64,000 nt of DNA from the NCBI RefSeq assembly GCF_009914755.1, contig NC_060934.1. One strand, 5' to 3'. The position numbers and the translations under genes are program-made. Source of the stretch: the human T2T-CHM13v2.0 reference genome, Homo sapiens. Numbering within the stretch: position 1 is the stretch's first letter; every line of letters begins with the position of its first letter. The notes under the pieces are model-generated. The model searched no databases, was not told the DNA's origin, and worked only from the letters and a program-made list of their open reading frames with translations. Below, piece after piece: positions 12,856 to 63,800 of this stretch.

Positions 12856-13015
12856 CTGCAAAATGATTCCTCCACATTATATCAGCGAAACTCATTGGTG
12901 GGCCACTGGGAGGGTAGTGTTTACCTTTCAGAGGTTCATGATCAGTCCTTATCATATCCATTAAGGAGTTCTCCAACGAGTGCAAGTTAAAAGTATCATA
13001 GGGCCTACTCCGGTC
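12856..13015 (-). CDS. CPEB3: CPEB3 exon 3 (160 nt; DRSRPYDTFNLHSLENSLMDMIRTDHEPLKGKHYPPSGPPMSFADIMWRNHFAG)
   Basis: Acceptor ttgtttttattcttAG|GACCGG and donor TTGCAG|GTTAGG. Continues the exon-2 frame without stops. Internal alternative donor AAAG|GTAAAC after 12925. Confidence 0.95.
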
Positions 13016-56830: not shown

Positions 56831-57203
<373 letters not shown>

Positions 57204-59725
57204 CTATTGTGTTGGCAGAAACTGGCAAAAAAGAAGCAGTGCAGGGTAGAATGGGTTTCTTTAAAAGTTTTAACATACATTAGAGTAGATCACTGCAGAA
57301 AGACTCTTTTATTAATAGCTCAAAAATCTGTTAAATAAAAAATAAAGTTGCTATTCTATAAAATAAACTCTGATTTAAATAAAATCACATTTGCCAGAAT
57401 AAATATTTTGAAAAAATCATCGAAACCACTTAAGATATTTTCTTCCTTTTTTAGAAAAATTATTTCAATAAATGCACATACACAAAATTCTGCACACAAG
57501 ACTCAGGTGTTCTTTGTTTCTAACACAAACTTGGTACGGTTATCAACAGAAATCAAGTCTAATATCCCAGCCAAAGCACAACCAACTTCCTCCTCTGATC
57601 CTAAAATTGCTCCAAAACCCTAAGCTCTGTTTTATGAAAAAGAAATGAGACATAATGTATATGTAATTCTTCCCAAGGCCAAATAAATAATGCTCAATTT
57701 TCAATCAAATCTGTCCTCCTACAAATCTTTTGGCCATTTTTGCCTATCCAATAGCATCACCAGGGATGGAAAGATGAGACTATACTGAATCCAGTCCATT
57801 TGGCTCTTATTAGCATCATTGGTGAATGGTTTGCTGTGTAACAACTGGCAATCCCTATACTCCTCGTCAATATCAGGTTTGACGAAACTATGTGGATTTA
57901 ATCTCTCCCTAATCCCCATGCCAGGAGATAATTCACCAATAGCTAGTTGTATTCAGAGTCAACTCCCAGAAAAAGATAACAAGATCTGTCTATATTATCA
58001 GCTCCCAAAACTCCCTATAAGATTTTAGGTTATCCTCTAAGACTGAACTCAGGTACGGAGCATGAGAATAAAGAGAGGGAATGTTAGAAAAAGAGGGCCT
58101 TTCCTACCAAATGCAGCCTCCCTGCTCTACCCCCTCCAAAAATAAGCACATAAATTCCAGAAAGCAAATTCCTCCTTTTCTCTATGAAATGAATCCCACC
58201 TTGCAACATCTCATTTTATTAAAATAAACAAACTTTAGAATGGGAAAAAAATATAACTTAATATTGAAATCGTCCATTCCTGAAGGATCCTTGTGAAAAT
58301 TCCTTGTGAAGATCCTCTCTCATCAAAGTTAAAAATCATTACTCTAGCCTAGAGAGTCATGTCCTTCTCAATAACCTCATCTCTTCCTTCATGAATGGGA
58401 GCCACTCCAAACATCTGTAATGTAAAGAGATGAAGACTGCATCTGCACCTGACACTATACCTCTCTCAAACTGTCAGCTCTACCAAGCACTCCTCAAAGG
58501 ATTTCTGCTTCATTTCCTTGACCATCCAAATTGGGTCTTGTTGGAGGCCTTCCCCTCTCCCCTTTTTCTTTAACTGAGCCTAGAAGCTTACAGCCAAATC
58601 AACTTCTAAGTGAAGGATAAGTGTTTGCCTGGGAGCAAAAGCCGCCTGTGAACACACACCCGCACTACGCCTTTCCAACCCAAGATGCCCAGGACACTGC
58701 CAATTGCTATGGCTGTGGACTAGATCAGAAAGCAAGAACAGAAATAAGGACACTCTTCATTTCAACCTTTTTGTCTGGGGCACATCCTGAGTTTTTCATT
58801 GGCATTTAACACCAAGACACAGGACTCATTTTTCATTAAAGTTGCAAGACTTTCACTTTGCCCAGTTTCAAATGATGTAATTGATCTGTATTTTCTTAAC
58901 CCAACTGATGAAGGACACTGCAGCTTTAAATATTTCAGTGCTAGCTAGCAAATAGACTCCATTGCAATATGGCTCTGAAGGTCACGTCCTATTGTCTCTT
59001 ACCTCCGAAAAAAAAAAAAAAATCCTTCTTCTAGGTAACATGGAGAGGGTTGCCCTTAGAATTTCCACTCTTCCACCTCCTTCCCTTACACAGTAGTGAG
59101 TGTTTATTAGGATCTCACACTCATAATTTTCCCAGCAGGGGCAATATGCTGATTGTTATTAATGATTCTAGCACCTTAGCGAGACATAAACACATGTGTT
59201 CACATTAGTTTAACTGAGCATACGCAACCGTCTGAAATAGCACCACTCAAGGGTTGTTAACCTCTTTAAGAGTAAAGTCAGGGTGGTTTGGGTGTGGACC
59301 GCTTGCAGGCGGCACCCTGAGCTCAGGATTGCATAACCTGAAATGTGTAGCTACTCAAAATGATAGGAATCTCAGCCTACTCATCCTGGGACTATGCCGG
59401 CACCTTGCCACACACTTGCAGCTTTACTTGTCAAAGGAAGTCAAAATAAGAGGTACAAACACCATGAAGGAGAAAATAAACTAAAAGAAAAAGGCTTCTT
59501 CTACCCTGAAGGGACGAATACGATTCCTCCAGTAATCACAATGTTCTCCCAACCTCATCCTCTGATAATGGAACAGCCCTAAAGAACTGGAGGCTTCGGA
59601 AGGGGAAAGAGGAGCTGGACATTGCTGCCCTTTTTAAATATAAGCGGGTGGATGATTAAAAGTCAGAGAAGTGGCAAAAGGAGCGGGGCAGAGGGAAGGA
59701 GTGTGTAGGTGCAGCAGAGTATTAC

Positions 59726-60730
59726 CTGAAATGGCAACAGATTGTTACCATTATCGGTCCGGAAAGCGTTATCCTCCATCCAGGACTTGGAAGTGAGAGG
59801 GGCCGCGCGAGGGAACTTGGGCGGCGCGATCACGTTGCTGGAGAAGGGCTTTTTGAGCGGCGAGATGGGGTTGAGCGGGGAAGGCACCCCGACACCCACA
59901 CCCACGCCCACACCGACCGCCCGGCGAGGGTCCCGGCCCGCCTGCAGGCCGCCCCAGGGGTTGGACGGTGCGCTCCAGGCTGCATTCACGCTTTGGTGCG
60001 TGTTCCAGCTGGACGAGGCCGACGAGGCGGCGGCTGCGGCAGCAGCGGCTGCAACCGCCGAAGACGAGGACGGCTTGCTGGTCATGATGGGCTGGTGGCC
60101 GTACGCCGCGGCGGCGCTCCTCTGCGCGTAGGGCGCCTGGCTGGGGCTGGCGGGTGAGCGGCGCTGCTGCGGGGGCTGCGCCTGTGGTGGCTGCGCTGGC
60201 TGTGCCGGCTGCGGCGCGGGCGCAGGCGGCGGCGGCTGCTGGTGGTGCTGGGTCTGCGCCAGGCCGATCTGCGGGGAGAAAGTGCCTCCGAAGACTGGGT
60301 TGACATGGTGCGGGAAGTTCTGGAAGAGCATGGTCCCGTTGACTGGGGTGATCCCCTGGAAGAAGCTGTCCTCTACCGCGTTGGTGGTGCCCGTGGACCA
60401 GGTGCTGCCGAAGGACGGCGACAGCGACGCGCCCGGTGCCGCGGGCTCCTGAGGCGGCGGCGGCTGCTGAGGGGGCTGATGGAAACTCAAGCCTGGCAGG
60501 AGCGGTGATTCCATCTGCATCTTGTCCGGGCCGTTGGGGGCCGGGGGGGCAGCGGCTGGGCTGAGGGCCGGCACTGCGCTGTTTTCCTCCGGCTTGGGGG
60601 TCTCTGAGGAGAGGGGCGTGGACGGGGCTTCGGATACGCTGGACTCAGGTTGGGGCTGCTGCTGCTGCCGCTGCTGCTGCTGGGGCTGGGGCTGGGTTTT
60701 GCTTTTGTCCATCAGTAAATCATCCTGCAT
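59726..60730 (-). CDS. CPEB3: CPEB3 first coding exon (exon 2), codons 1-335; Q/P/A-rich low-complexity (prion-like) N-terminal region
   Basis: Translation MQDDLLMDKSKTQPQPQQQQ...SWMEDNAFRTDNGNNLLPFQ recognised as CPEB3. Acceptor tctctcttttttcccgtttcAG|CTGCGCAAACC-ATG (exon starts 60741, 11 nt of 5'UTR). Donor CAG|GTAATA after 59726. 1005 coding nt, phase 0. Confidence 0.97.
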
Positions 60731-60850
60731 GGTTTGCGCAGCTGAAACGGGAAAAAAGAGAGACGCGTTATTGTCAATGTGATCATGAATGTCCCTCGCT
60801 GAAGCGGGCGGGTGTTTCACTTGCGAAAATCCATCGCCACCGCTACTAGC
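59740..60850. promoter_or_regulatory. CpG island over CPEB3 exon 2
   Basis: Very high GC and CpG density against the AT-rich, CpG-poor introns. Confidence 0.75.
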
Positions 60851-63800
60851 CAATTGCAATGCAAATCCATAATCTCCCATTTAGAAGAACAGGTCAGGCT
60901 GTTGGGTGGGGAATAGGGAAGGTGTCGAGCAAGGTCTCTAAAAATACTGTGAGAGCGTCTTCAACCTTTCAGATGTCTTGGTTCCTTTTCTGTATTAGTG
61001 AGAGATGTGCTTATAAGACAGAAAAGACAGCAATTTCGCCACGTCTCTTTTCCCTTCACCGGAACTCAGAGCGTTCGCCCTGCAATGAGAAACTGATTCT
61101 GGTTCCTGTTTTTTCCCAAGCACCACCCTCCCCCACTTATTTGCATACGTCAATAAATACTGCTGCGTCCTTCAGCAAGGTTAAAAAGACACCGCACACA
61201 CGACCCTTTCTTCTCCCTTCCCCAGCTCGAACACTTTTTAAAAAAACAAAACAAAAAAACCAGTATTAGCCCTCTTGATTAGCAAACTGCCTTCTTGCGT
61301 TGGTAATTGTTTCATTTAGCTGCAGCGAACCACGAGGGAGGAATCCTTGGCATTTGTTAGAAGGACTCAGCTGCACAATCATTCTCTGGCCTCCCAGTAG
61401 CTGCAGCTACTCCATTTTGTTAGGAGACAGTTAATTTAAAAAAAAACGTTTTTAAAGAAGTAAAAACCTACTGAAACGTTTGGAAGTGCTTGCTTCTTGT
61501 TACTCTAAGGATTATGGTTTTTCTGCTTATTCCCCAATTTTCTTGTCTCCAATTCTGCCGCACAAGAGATTTCTTGGCATCGCAGTGCTTCAGGTCTCAA
61601 CAGGAGCCTAAGAATTTCTCTGCAGAGTGGAGAAATGCTTCTGGTTGGATTTAAGGTCAGAGAGTGCGCGCGAGCGAGCGAGCGCCTGTGAGATAGGGTG
61701 GGGGTGGGGCTTTAAAAAAAACCCTCAGAGATTTAAGTAGACAGTCAAGATAATTCTGGGGTTGTCAGATTTTCAATTTTGAATCCTCCTGCTGCTGTCT
61801 TGGTCACAAGACTTTGGCAAATTTAGAATCCATTCTCTTATCACTAGTATTAGCAGCGAAACACTATGGTTTGAAGACCCTGAATTACCATATGCTAGCA
61901 AAAGTGTTAAAAATAGAGGAGTACAAAGTCTCAAATTTTCATACATTGTAATTATAGTGCATTGCCATCACTGCTTCATTTAGCCATATAAGGAGTGTAT
62001 GGTATTTTCCATCTCACAGAGAAGGGCTATATTCACCTCTACCATACAGCCTGTTTTCTTATTCAAGGATGAAAATTACTAATCACTCAAAACCCGGAGA
62101 CTGCCATACATGTAGTTAGCTTGTCCTTAGAACATGTTAATTGCTTTAAATATATAAATATTACAGTGCTGAGACCCTAAAAACAAATATTTTGAAATGT
62201 TAAAGGGGCATATGACCAAACATATAATTATTTTTAGATGATGATTCAGTACAATTGCAACAAAGTTATTAATAAATTTAATGCAGTTACTTAATTAACC
62301 CAGATACTTGGAGAGGAATCTTTCTCAGGACACTTGTGAAAAGGCATTCAGATACACACAGAAGCTCTGCCTCTAGACATCCTCATGATAATAATTATTG
62401 TTAAAATCAACATATCAGAAAATGAAAATATTAACTATTATGCAAAATATATCAGACAAATGGGATTAAAAGTAGTTCTATTATTTTATTAGAGACTATC
62501 ATTAAAATGGTTCATTAGTATCTTTTATTTCAAAGTTTCATACACAAAATAGTGGTGGGCTAAAGGAAATGCTTCGCAGCCACCTTGCTCTCCCTTCTAT
62601 TCCTCATTCCCCTGCCTTTCCTCCCTTCAACCCCCCCAGGGAAAAAAACCCAACTCAATATAATATACAACACAGATTGCCGGCTACTACCAATAAAATC
62701 TATTTAAGATTGCTTTTATGTTCCTCAGTTCCCTTGGTCTAAAACAATGGCTTTGATCAGTATTGCAAAATACAATACAAAGAGGCAAATGAAGCTTTGA
62801 TTTAGACAGCACAAAGTTCTATTGCTGCCACAGAAGATGGTCACAGAAAGAGACATTTTCATACTTGGTTTAAACGGTGCTGCAGTAAACCATTATAATC
62901 TGAGATTTGAGTCACTTCCAGTGAGCTAGAATTGTCTTTATAATAGCCATATCATCATGGCTGAAATAGGCATTTGATTATAATTTTAATATCACTCTGC
63001 TTTTCCGGTTGCTTGTATCAATGCTTGCTGTTAATGCCTTCAGTTTAAACTACATGCTCTTCATGGAAAAATTAATGCTGTACCTCAGCAAAAAAGCCAA
63101 AAAGTAAGCTGGACTCAGAACATTTTATAGTAGCTGTAATCAATGTTAACATATTCATTGAATTTTAAAAATTTTATACCAGGAACACCCATTTCTCTTC
63201 TCAACACTCCTTAAAAATATAAATTTTGCTTTCTGCATAAATTCACTCTGTCAAGGTCAAGACCCACCTTTAATAAATAAGACCTTTTCAAACAAAAGGT
63301 AAGCAATAGATTAACATAAAATTTGCAAAGGTAGTATTCAACGTCTCTCAGCAACTGCCTGTATAGTTTGTTTTGTGTTCTTGGGGTTGTTTTTTGTTTT
63401 TTTGGGTTTTTTGTTTTTGTTTTTGTTTTTGCTTATTTACAGCAAAGTGAGAAATAGATACCTCCTTCCCCTCCCCCACCACACACAATAGATATTCTTT
63501 TACATGCAATAACCCAATTTCAAGTAACAAAATCTTAGTAGCAGTTACCTTTGAGTGTCCAGTTTTTAAGAATCGATAAAATTTAAAAGTATACAGTATT
63601 TATTTTCTTCTTTCAGGTTGATTATGTGACCGCTCTGGCAAAAGCACTTTGACAACTGTAAGATGAGAGGGCATGCGCACACAGGGAACTGTGGGGGCTG
63701 AAGTCCTTCACAAGGTACTCGATCTGACTTCAGCACGTTCAGCCGGGAAAGGAGGAAGTCTCACAAATACAGATTCTGAGGGGAAAAGGTTGTGTCCTGA

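What the first reader, a model, noticed from the sequence alone, without database searches (positions are those of the whole stretch)
60731..60898. Hidden 50-aa in-frame N-terminal extension of CPEB3 that starts like CPEB4 (MGDYGF)
Seen: an ATG at 60880 (context taaATGG) opens 50 stop-free codons, MGDYGFALQLASSGGDGFSQVKHPPASARDIHDHIDNNASLFFPVSAAQT, running in frame into MQDDLL and through the usual exon 2 acceptor. A pyrimidine-rich acceptor ccttccctattccccacccaacAG|C lies only 18 nt upstream of this ATG (exon start 60898). From recall, CPEB4 begins MGDYGFGVLVQS and later reads ...NNN...AWLFPAPATHNIQDEIL, similar to DNNASLFFPVSAAQTMQDDLL here. Inference: the ancestral CPEB2/3/4 N-terminus survives in nominal intron 1, and 3' splice-site choice (60898 vs 60741) could switch between a long and a short N-terminus just ahead of the prion-like domain. 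A 50-codon open frame alone is weak evidence; the paralog similarity carries the claim.
Basis: partly seen in the sequence, partly recalled or inferred. Interest (0 to 1): 0.8.

Follow-up and report, generated by a model that had tools for sequence, protein, structure and literature searches.

The report
Ancestral start codon hidden in CPEB3
Just upstream of the accepted start of the human gene CPEB3 lies an intact, deeply conserved 50-codon stretch that is the original beginning of this protein family, so human CPEB3 may also be made in a longer form that has not been annotated or studied.

Summary
On the minus strand a TAA (60883-60881) is followed by ATG 60880 and 50 open codons running in frame into the annotated CPEB3 start at 60730.

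It is not a chance frame. It is the ancestral N-terminus of the CPEB2/3/4 subfamily.
- Human CPEB4 starts MGDYGF and human CPEB2's long frame starts MRDFGF. Both starts directly follow a TAA, and both proteins carry the MQDDLL-type motif internally.
- The same extension heads CPEB3 models of 19 mammals, lungfish, coelacanth and 20 teleosts.
- It is as conserved as the next 50 accepted codons, and mammals show no indels.

No human-named model and no paper carrying the peptide was found.

Whether humans translate it was not testable here. A simpler route exists: RefSeq's alternative first exon 60966-61123 gives a 243-nt leader with no AUG, and its 224-nt intron, which holds the hidden ATG, has a non-consensus donor (AAG|GTTGAA). 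Retaining that intron would yield the long form.

Verdict: a real, ancient coding segment, absent from the human annotation given here, with human use unproven. Interest is moderate.

The parts
60881..60883 (-). In-frame TAA directly before the hidden ATG. The same TAA-ATG arrangement occurs in human CPEB4 and CPEB2.
60878..60880 (-). Ancestral start codon (context TTCTAAATGG: T at -3, G at +4). The -3 and +4 bases match the accepted CPEB4 start.
60731..60880 (-). The 50-codon in-frame N-terminal extension, MGDYGFALQLASSGG...NNASLFFPVSAAQT.
60728..60730 (-). Annotated CPEB3 start codon (MQDDLL; context CAAACCATGC). It corresponds to an internal Met in CPEB2 and an internal Ile in CPEB4.
   Evidence: hub annotation
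59726..60741 (-). Annotated exon 2 (first coding exon) of NM_014912.5. Its 3' splice site lies inside the ancestral reading frame.
   Evidence: hub annotation
60742..60765 (-). AG and pyrimidine tract of the annotated acceptor (20 of 22 Y). This stretch also encodes SLFFPVS of the extension, so it is dual-use sequence.
60742..60965 (-). 224-nt intron between the alternative first exon and exon 2. It contains the hidden ATG and 46 full codons of the extension. The donor AAG|GTTGAA departs from consensus at +3 to +6.
   Evidence: hub annotation
60966..61123 (-). Alternative first exon of other RefSeq transcripts. No AG precedes 61123, so it is read as a transcription start. The 243 nt from 61123 down to 60881 hold no ATG. 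The exon is conserved to fish at the translated level.
   Evidence: hub annotation
60899..60922 (-).
   Evidence: sequence only; use not shown
60786..60872 (-). Span holding three out-of-frame (+1) ATGs at 60870, 60834 and 60786. Two are in strong context. On an unspliced leader they would compete with both in-frame starts.

Best explanation
The 150 nt at 60731-60880 (minus strand) are the original first 50 codons of CPEB3, including the family's ancestral start codon. In the common ancestor of CPEB2, CPEB3 and CPEB4 the first exon carried leader, ATG (M-G/R-D-Y/F-G-F) and the disordered N-terminal domain as one piece. CPEB4 and CPEB2 still look like this.

In the CPEB3 lineage a 3' splice site sits inside that exon, within one codon of the same place in ray-finned fish and human. 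Transcripts from upstream promoters therefore skip the ancestral ATG and start at the next in-frame Met (MQDDLL), which is the annotated human protein.

I infer that the long form is still made in mammals as a minor proteoform. It would arise when the segment is not spliced out. The most likely source is transcripts starting at the annotated proximal first exon (TSS 61123) that retain the 224-nt intron 60965-60742. Splicing into the AG at 60899 is a less likely source. The product would be CPEB3 with 50 extra residues, comparatively rich in aromatic residues and histidine, placed directly before the Q-rich prion-like region.

Shown: the frame, its homology, its conservation, and the AUG-free leader.
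Inferred: transcription through the segment, translation from 60880 in human, and any effect on condensation.
For: 1. Frame and start are exactly as described.

2. Paralogues in the same genome.
- Human CPEB4 exon 1 opens MGDYGFGVLVQ directly after a TAA and reaches IQDEIL 69 residues later.
- The human CPEB2 long frame opens MRDFGFGVLQT directly after a TAA and reaches QQTMQDELLLG 92 residues later.
- DNA around the starts is still alignable: CPEB3/CPEB4 23 of 28, E 0.006; CPEB4/CPEB2 27 of 30, E 1.4e-6.
- Global alignment of the extension: 0 of 5000 shuffles reach the score against CPEB4, and 12 of 5000 against CPEB2.
- HMMER alignments of CPEB4 to the CPEB3 locus run 12 codons into the extension (window 60766; query residue 39).

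3. Orthologues.
- 55 protein models (36 distinct segments) start with this extension.
- Of these, 54 models from 41 species carry it whole: 19 mammals, lungfish, coelacanth and 20 teleosts.
- The remaining model (Rhinolophus) keeps only its first residues.
- Shark proteins named CPEB4b are intermediate: a CPEB4-like start and a CPEB3-like ...SAAQTMQDDLL junction.

4. It evolves like the adjacent accepted coding sequence. Identity to human, extension versus the next 50 codons: pig 46/50 vs 44/50, cow 39/50 vs 43/50, lungfish 32/50 vs 27/50, electric eel 27/50 vs 23/50. There were no gap columns in any of 13 mammalian representatives. The ends are conserved and the middle varies in length in fish (50-63 residues).

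5. A route to translation exists in the annotation.
- Exon 60966-61123 has no preceding AG, so it is a first exon.
- The 243-nt leader down to 60881 has no ATG; only 348 of 20000 shuffles have none.
- The intron donor is AAG|GTTGAA.
- The -3 and +4 bases at 60880 match those of the accepted CPEB4 start.
Against: - No transcript, ribosome-profiling or peptide data could be consulted, so human use is not shown.
- The 22 human RefSeq transcripts listed by the hub have no exon over 60742-60898. No human-named or great-ape-named model was among the 31 clusters that match the extension alone (25, 6). Cluster members cannot be listed.
- The one window-identical hit (P0122) is a raw frame read through the exon-2 donor, not an isoform model.
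- Predicted isoforms in other species may be propagated by protein homology and are not independent proof of expression.
- The ATG has T at -3. Three +1-frame ATGs follow it, two in strong context.
- Outside the first 11 residues the similarity to CPEB4 and CPEB2 is not significant pairwise. It is weak by profile: 7.6-15.5 bits for the eight that were printed, against a best of 15.1 bits among 9000 decoys.
- Some lineages seem to have lost or broken it. Pangolin and pika models start in the +1 frame. A Rhinolophus model skips most of it. The snake and newt models have other starts. The caecilian and bilby models start at MQDDLL.
- The neighbouring non-coding leader exon is also conserved to fish, so deep conservation here is not by itself proof of coding constraint. 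Part of the segment doubles as the pyrimidine tract of the main acceptor.
- No CPEB3 retrocopy exists in this genome that could record such an mRNA.
Confidence: 0.55

Rival explanations
1. Untranslated relic. The segment is the ancestral N-terminus, but mammals no longer translate it. It stays intact because it overlaps constrained non-coding functions: the pyrimidine tract and branch region of the main exon-2 acceptor, splicing-control elements of the 224-nt intron, and promoter-proximal or leader elements of the alternative first exon.
For: - No human model carries it (hub annotation).
- Its last ~25 nt are the acceptor tract.
- The adjacent non-coding exon 60966-61123 is itself conserved from fish to human.
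- RefSeq marks silencer elements at 60968-61197 (hub).
- Models hint at frame disruption in pangolin, pika and one bat.
- The ATG has T at -3, and out-of-frame ATGs follow it.
Against: - The best-conserved part is the first 15 codons, 95-150 nt from the acceptor. That is the very motif shared as protein with CPEB4 and CPEB2.
- All 19 mammalian species with a model keep exactly 50 codons, with no stop or indel. This holds even for cow, with 11 replacements.
- Replacement levels equal those of the adjacent accepted coding sequence.
- The leader from the annotated proximal start has no AUG.
Confidence: 0.35
2. The long form is made by alternative 3' splice-site choice: upstream exons join the AG at 60899 (exon start 60898) instead of the AG at 60742.
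For: An AG with an 18 of 22 pyrimidine tract lies 18 nt before the ATG. Several upstream exons with good donors exist, for example TCA|GTAGGT at 61472.
Against: - No annotated human exon starts at 60898 (hub).
- No protein model can show it, because a TAA precedes the ATG.
- From the nearest exon the intron would be only 67 nt (60965-60899).
- The stronger acceptor at 60742 (20 of 22 Y) lies downstream.
- Retention of the 224-nt intron needs no extra site.
Confidence: 0.15
3. Chance open frame with a coincidental MGDYGF.
For: A 50-codon open frame alone is common: 1530 of 20000 shuffles.
Against: The start motif is identical to that of the paralogue. It sits at the first ATG after a stop and is collinear with the MQDDLL-type motif. 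It is conserved from teleosts to human.
Confidence: 0.01

Closest known systems
N-terminus of human CPEB4 (first exon, L002 1501 onward)
   Same: The start motif MGDYGF comes directly after a TAA, with the same -3 and +4 bases. A variable disordered stretch follows, then a hydrophobic L-F-P patch, then the IQDEIL/MQDDLL motif. All of this lies on one exon with the rest of the N-terminal domain.
   Different: In CPEB4 this is the only start: the equivalent of CPEB3's annotated Met is Ile. The CPEB4 segment is 69 residues rather than 50, and the middle is not significantly similar. No internal acceptor use is known to me for CPEB4 (recalled, not tested).
Long open frame of human CPEB2 (L015 2455 onward, MRDFGF...)
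   Same: The same start motif type after a TAA, and the same internal ...QQTMQDELL junction. At that junction 17 of 18 nt are identical to CPEB3. A short form is used in practice: one paper defines the CPEB2 N-terminal domain as residues 1-311 of a short isoform (passage).
   Different: The CPEB2 segment is 92 residues and rich in Pro, Ser and Ala. Pairwise similarity to the CPEB3 extension is weak: local not significant, global reached by 12 of 5000 shuffles.
Predicted and annotated CPEB3 isoforms of other vertebrates (NCBI 'isoform X' models, UniProt/Ensembl entries)
   Same: The same 50 residues, at 78-100% identity in 19 mammals. The homologous N-terminus occurs in lungfish, coelacanth and 20 teleosts.
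   Different: These are automatic models of other species. No human-named entry was seen, and no experimental paper with the peptide was found.
Alternative N-terminal proteoforms made by alternative promoter use or intron retention (general kind)
   Same: Two in-frame starts on one exon. The upstream start is removed by splicing in the main transcripts. There is an AUG-free leader from a proximal start site.
   Different: Here the upstream start is the older one, and the 'intron' is former coding sequence. Use in human is not shown.

Membership tests
CPEB2/3/4-type N-terminus | Start motif M-[GR]-D-[YF]-G-F at the first ATG after an in-frame stop | tested here: met
   CPEB3 has TAA then MGDYGF. 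CPEB4 has TAA then MGDYGF. CPEB2 has TAA then MRDFGF. M1, D3 and F6 are invariant in a 15-sequence alignment.
CPEB2/3/4-type N-terminus | Collinear and in frame with the [MI]QD[DE][LI]L motif 50-92 residues downstream, on the same stretch of genomic DNA | tested here: met
   The distance is 50 residues in CPEB3, 69 in CPEB4 and 92 in CPEB2. HMMER alignments cross from the accepted exon into the extension.
CPEB2/3/4-type N-terminus | Significant sequence similarity along the whole segment, not only at the ends | tested here: inconclusive
   Without the first 11 residues the pairwise scores are not significant. A profile of 35 CPEB3 segments scores the eight printed CPEB4-type N-termini at 7.6-15.5 bits, against a best decoy of 15.1 bits. 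Shark intermediates bridge the two families by eye.
CPEB2/3/4-type N-terminus | Present in mature mRNA and translated | not testable with these tools
   No RNA-seq, ribosome-profiling or proteomic data were available. No papers with the peptide were found.
Alternative N-terminal proteoform through a retained intron or proximal promoter | An annotated transcription start from which the upstream ATG is the first AUG | tested here: met
   Exon 60966-61123 has no AG before it. There is no ATG in the 243 nt down to 60881; 348 of 20000 shuffles have none.
Alternative N-terminal proteoform through a retained intron or proximal promoter | Retention keeps the frame open into the main coding sequence | tested here: met
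   There is no stop between 60880 and 60730.
Alternative N-terminal proteoform through a retained intron or proximal promoter | Intron actually retained in a fraction of mature transcripts | not testable with these tools
   There are only indirect hints: a short intron (224 nt) and a non-consensus donor AAG|GTTGAA. The consensus used for comparison is recalled.
Pfam-defined protein domain | Match to any Pfam-A family over the extension or the N-terminal exon | tested here: not met
   0 families at E <= 1 for the 385-residue CPEB3 segment and for the CPEB4 first exon.

The most novel reading that the evidence does not exclude
Mammalian CPEB3, the prion-like translational regulator studied in memory, exists in two N-terminal forms. 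One is the studied short form. The other is an unstudied long form carrying the aromatic N-terminal motif it shares with CPEB2 and CPEB4. The choice would be set by a proximal promoter plus retention or removal of a 224-nt 'intron' that is former coding sequence. This arrangement is conserved since bony fish. The extra 50 residues would change condensation or aggregation of the adjacent Q-rich domain.
Probability: 0.3. Interest if true: 0.75.

Novelty: new member of a known kind. Interest (0 to 1): 0.5.

Why it matters
- The passages I read define the CPEB3 N-terminal domain from the database entry's residue 1: residues 1-452 of a mouse UniProt entry. By recall, not by any search, that entry starts at MQDDLL.
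- If a long form exists, 50 residues with 5 Phe/Tyr and 3 His sit directly before the Q-rich region. The first 100 accepted residues hold only 1 Phe and 1 His.
- In CPEB4 the first ~50 residues are not among those that stay visible by NMR in multimers. [quoted passage not shown]
- Two comparative papers report that CPEB3 forms foci least efficiently of the four CPEBs and destabilises mRNA most weakly (passages). I could not see which start their CPEB3 constructs use, so any link to the missing N-terminus is speculation.
- For annotation, this is a concrete candidate N-terminal extension in a well-studied human gene, with peptides and junctions that can be looked for directly.

Tried and rejected
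- One search was my slip: I translated from the wrong first base. It did show the +1 frame, which was later useful for reading the pangolin and pika models.
- Own-genome search with the 77-residue peptide found only the locus itself.
- Own-genome search with the 385-residue segment found CPEB3, CPEB4, CPEB2 and one weak hit (E 0.06) on contig 8. No CPEB3 retrocopy exists that could have recorded a long mRNA.
- A first fetch of the CPEB2 region missed the start. A second fetch found it.
- The profile search of CPEB3 extension segments against paralogue N-termini gave only weak scores. I do not claim whole-length similarity.
- Similarity between the CPEB4 leader and the CPEB3 exon 60966-61123 was not significant (26 of 34, E 0.27). 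I rejected it as evidence.
- Pfam: no family.
- The bacterial-type promoter and terminator scan is irrelevant to a human locus and gave nothing usable.
- The octamer ATGCAAAT near the proximal start is at chance frequency in the window: 7 found, 4.9 expected. It is not used as evidence.
- N-myristoylation of Gly2 was considered and set aside. Position 2 is Arg in human CPEB2 and in the Acomys CPEB3 model. The motif rules are recalled.
- Literature searches (listings and abstract starts only unless stated):
  - 'MGDYGF' gave one CPEB4 preprint.
  - 'GDYGFALQ' gave none.
  - CPEB3 with 'N-terminal extension' gave 8 papers, none relevant.
  - CPEB3 with 'alternative promoter' and 'isoform' gave 5 papers, none relevant.
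  - 'CPEB3 promoter' gave 3 papers, not read.
  - CPEB2 with 'longer', 'N-terminal' and 'start codon' matched 11 papers, 9 listed, none on the CPEB2 start.
- Supplementary tables of ribosome-profiling or N-terminomics papers were not searched and may bear on the claim.
Full report
**What is there**

On the minus strand the sequence reads TAA (60883-60881), then ATG (60880-60878), then 49 further stop-free codons. These run in frame into the annotated CPEB3 start codon at 60730. The stop-to-stop frame 59663..60880 begins with that Met.

The annotated exon-2 acceptor (exon start 60741) lies inside this frame. Its pyrimidine tract (20 of 22 Y) encodes SLFFPVS. The proposed upstream AG at 60900-60899, with 18 of 22 Y before it, is also present, 18 nt before the ATG. 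Openness alone is weak evidence: 1530 of 20000 shuffles of the 150 nt have no in-frame stop.

**Paralogues in the same genome**

The window's own assembly could be searched.
- Human CPEB4 exon 1 (L002) has a stop-to-stop frame whose first codon is the Met of MGDYGFGVLVQS. The frame reaches ...SAWLFPAPATHNIQDEIL 69 residues later.
- Human CPEB2 (L015) has a 607-codon frame whose first codon is the Met of MRDFGFGVLQT. It reaches ...SPFLAHQQTMQDELLLG 92 residues later.

All three genes therefore share one plan. A TAA comes directly before the ATG, then the start motif, then a variable disordered stretch, then a short hydrophobic patch, then the MQDDLL-type motif. CPEB3's annotated start Met is internal in CPEB2 (Met) and in CPEB4 (Ile).

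The DNA around the starts is still alignable:
- CPEB3/CPEB4: 23 of 28, E 0.006.
- CPEB4/CPEB2: 27 of 30, E 1.4e-6.
- CPEB3/CPEB2 at the QTMQDE junction: 17 of 18, E 0.007.

Protein comparisons gave a mixed picture.
- The global alignment score of the 50 residues was reached by 0 of 5000 shuffles against CPEB4 and by 12 of 5000 against CPEB2.
- Without the first 11 residues the pairwise scores are not significant.
- A profile of 35 CPEB3 segments scored eight of the nine paralogue N-termini tested at 7.6-15.5 bits, against a best of 15.1 bits among 9000 decoys. The score for human CPEB2 fell below the rows I printed.

The homology therefore rests on the start motif, the collinearity and the orthologue series. 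It does not rest on whole-length similarity.

**Orthologues**

The protein database holds vertebrate models. With the 385-residue query (extension plus exon 2), 488 proteins passed E <= 0.001 among 8000 scored candidates, and 120 were listed.

Across models (36 distinct segments) begin with the extension. Of these, 54 models from 41 species carry it whole:
- 19 mammalian species: gibbon, six Old World monkeys, marmoset, four bats, pig, warthog, cat, lynx, two cattle, and the rodent Acomys.
- Lungfish and coelacanth.
- 20 teleost species.

The remaining model, from the bat Rhinolophus, keeps only the first residues.

Scoring the 50 residues alone gave 25 clusters among proteins of 675 residues or more (24 mammalian plus lungfish, of 34 candidates). 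It gave 6 clusters among proteins of 211-674 residues (of 10 candidates). None carries a human or great-ape name. Cluster members cannot be listed, so a hidden member cannot be excluded. The one window-identical hit (P0122) is a raw frame read through the exon-2 donor, not an isoform model.

Shark proteins named CPEB4b combine a CPEB4-like start with the CPEB3-like junction ...SAAQTMQDDLL.

**Does it evolve like coding sequence?**

Only proteins were available, so dN/dS could not be computed. Identity to human in the extension matches that in the next 50 accepted codons:

| Species | Extension | Next 50 codons |
|---|---|---|
| macaque | 50/50 | 48/50 |
| marmoset | 49/50 | 45/50 |
| pig | 46/50 | 44/50 |
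| cow | 39/50 | 43/50 |
| Acomys | 42/50 | 41/50 |
| lungfish | 32/50 | 27/50 |
| electric eel | 27/50 | 23/50 |

None of the 13 mammalian representatives has a gap column in the extension. The first 15 residues and the last 12 are the conserved parts. In fish the middle varies in sequence and length, 50-63 residues in all. This pattern is usual for disordered protein regions.

Three caveats apply.
- Models exist only where the frame is open, so the sample is biased.
- The last ~25 nt double as the main acceptor's pyrimidine tract.
- The adjacent non-coding exon 60966-61123 is also conserved to fish at the translated level (blenny model P0078: 14 of 27, E 6.5e-4).

Some models hint at loss.
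- The pangolin (P0058) and pika (P0034) models start in the human +1 frame and then join the main frame.
- The Rhinolophus model (P0042) skips most of the segment.
- The snake and newt models have other starts.
- The caecilian and bilby models start at MQDDLL.

**The internal splice site is old**

Models that splice an upstream exon into the site just before A-Q-T-MQDDLL occur in mammals. They also occur in sturgeon, milkfish, fugu and others (for example MKIHIWLQNTSY-x-AQQTMQDDLL). The junction codon is within one codon of the human position. Two kinds of N-terminus therefore seem to be an old feature of CPEB3. One is contiguous from the ancestral ATG. The other is spliced in from upstream exons.

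**How the long form could be made in human**

RefSeq lists an exon 60966-61123 in other CPEB3 transcripts (hub).
- No AG precedes 61123, so I read it as a first exon.
- Its donor is AAG|GTTGAA. This departs from the recalled consensus at +3 to +6.
- The intron down to 60742 is 224 nt. It contains the hidden ATG.
- From 61123 to 60881 there is no ATG in 243 nt; only 348 of 20000 shuffles have none.

On an unspliced transcript from this start, 60880 is therefore the first AUG. Its context (T at -3, G at +4) has the same -3 and +4 bases as the accepted CPEB4 start.

Against efficient use, three +1-frame ATGs follow at 60870, 60834 and 60786. Two of them are in strong context.

No annotated exon or model supports it. 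From the nearest exon the intron would be only 67 nt.

**Literature**

- The string MGDYGF occurs in one held paper, a CPEB4 preprint (listing only). GDYGFALQ occurs in none.
- Searches pairing CPEB3 with 'N-terminal extension' (8 papers), with 'alternative promoter' plus 'isoform' (5 papers), or for 'CPEB3 promoter' (3 papers) showed nothing on this segment in titles or abstract starts.
- Passages of PMC11711090 define the CPEB3 N-terminal domain as residues 1-452 of a mouse UniProt entry and the CPEB2 domain as residues 1-311 of a short isoform. They also say that in CPEB4 multimers only residues about 50-150 stay visible by NMR.
- Passages of PMC9465852 and PMC9465963 say CPEB3 forms foci least efficiently and destabilises mRNA most weakly among the CPEBs.
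- I did not see which start codon those constructs use.

**Verdict**

The claim that this is the ancestral CPEB2/3/4 N-terminus, intact in a nominal human intron, is well supported (about 0.97). I judge protein-level constraint in mammals to be likely (about 0.7). Translation in human is about even odds (0.55). The specific splice-switch mechanism is untested, and intron retention from the proximal first exon is my preferred alternative.

It is a new (human) member of a known kind. The same extension is already predicted in many other species. Alternative N-termini made by promoter or splice choice are common.

Noticed in passing
window 24605-24682 (-): The mammalian CPEB3 ribozyme (Rfam RF00622) matches at 105 bits, full length 1-78. 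It lies in the intron between the exons at 59726-60741 and 12856-13015.
   Followed up: no
window 56848-56964 (+): A Metazoa_SRP match at 75 bits (gathering score 70). The 117 nt span model positions 1-299. It is probably a 7SL-derived repeat rather than an SRP RNA gene.
   Followed up: no
window 60966-61123 (-): The alternative first exon is conserved from fish to human at the translated level (Salarias model P0078: 14 of 27, E 6.5e-4; bat model P0065: E 9.7e-5). In some fish models it supplies an upstream in-frame Met. In human that frame has no ATG. It overlaps RefSeq 'silencer' elements.
   Followed up: partly
window 61139-61152 (-) and 60859-60866 (+): TGACGT, followed at once by the octamer ATGCAAAT, lies 16 nt upstream of the proximal start 61123. 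A second octamer in the opposite orientation lies inside codons G-F-A-L of the extension. The octamer count in the window is at chance level (7 found, 4.9 expected).
   Followed up: partly
window 63550-63674 (-): The N-terminus of a bank-vole CPEB3 model (P0062) maps to the upstream exon 63549-63659 (E 2.6e-8). The human frame there contains a stop, so that rodent-model extension is not open in human.
   Followed up: no
L015 2455-4278 (+), own genome contig 4: The human CPEB2 first exon has a 607-codon open frame starting MRDFGF directly after a TAA. This is far longer than the short CPEB2 N-terminal domain (residues 1-311) used in one paper I read. It parallels the CPEB3 case.
   Followed up: partly
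proteins P0058, P0034, P0042: The pangolin and pika CPEB3 models begin at ATGs of the human +1 frame inside the extension and then join the main frame. A Rhinolophus model joins residue 12 of the extension to the AAQT junction. These suggest frameshifts or small modelled introns in those species.
   Followed up: no
proteins P0113-P0116: Cartilaginous-fish proteins named CPEB4b have a CPEB4-like start and a CPEB3-like ...SAAQTMQDDLL junction. They score closer to the CPEB3 exon than the CPEB4 proteins do (E 1.8e-40 to 3.0e-33, against 1e-26). They may be misnamed CPEB3 orthologues or a further paralogue.
   Followed up: no
window 60600-60899 versus 59800-60699: GC content falls from 0.67-0.78 over most of the accepted coding exon to 0.47 over the extension and its upstream flank. 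This is a compositional break close to the annotated start.
   Followed up: no
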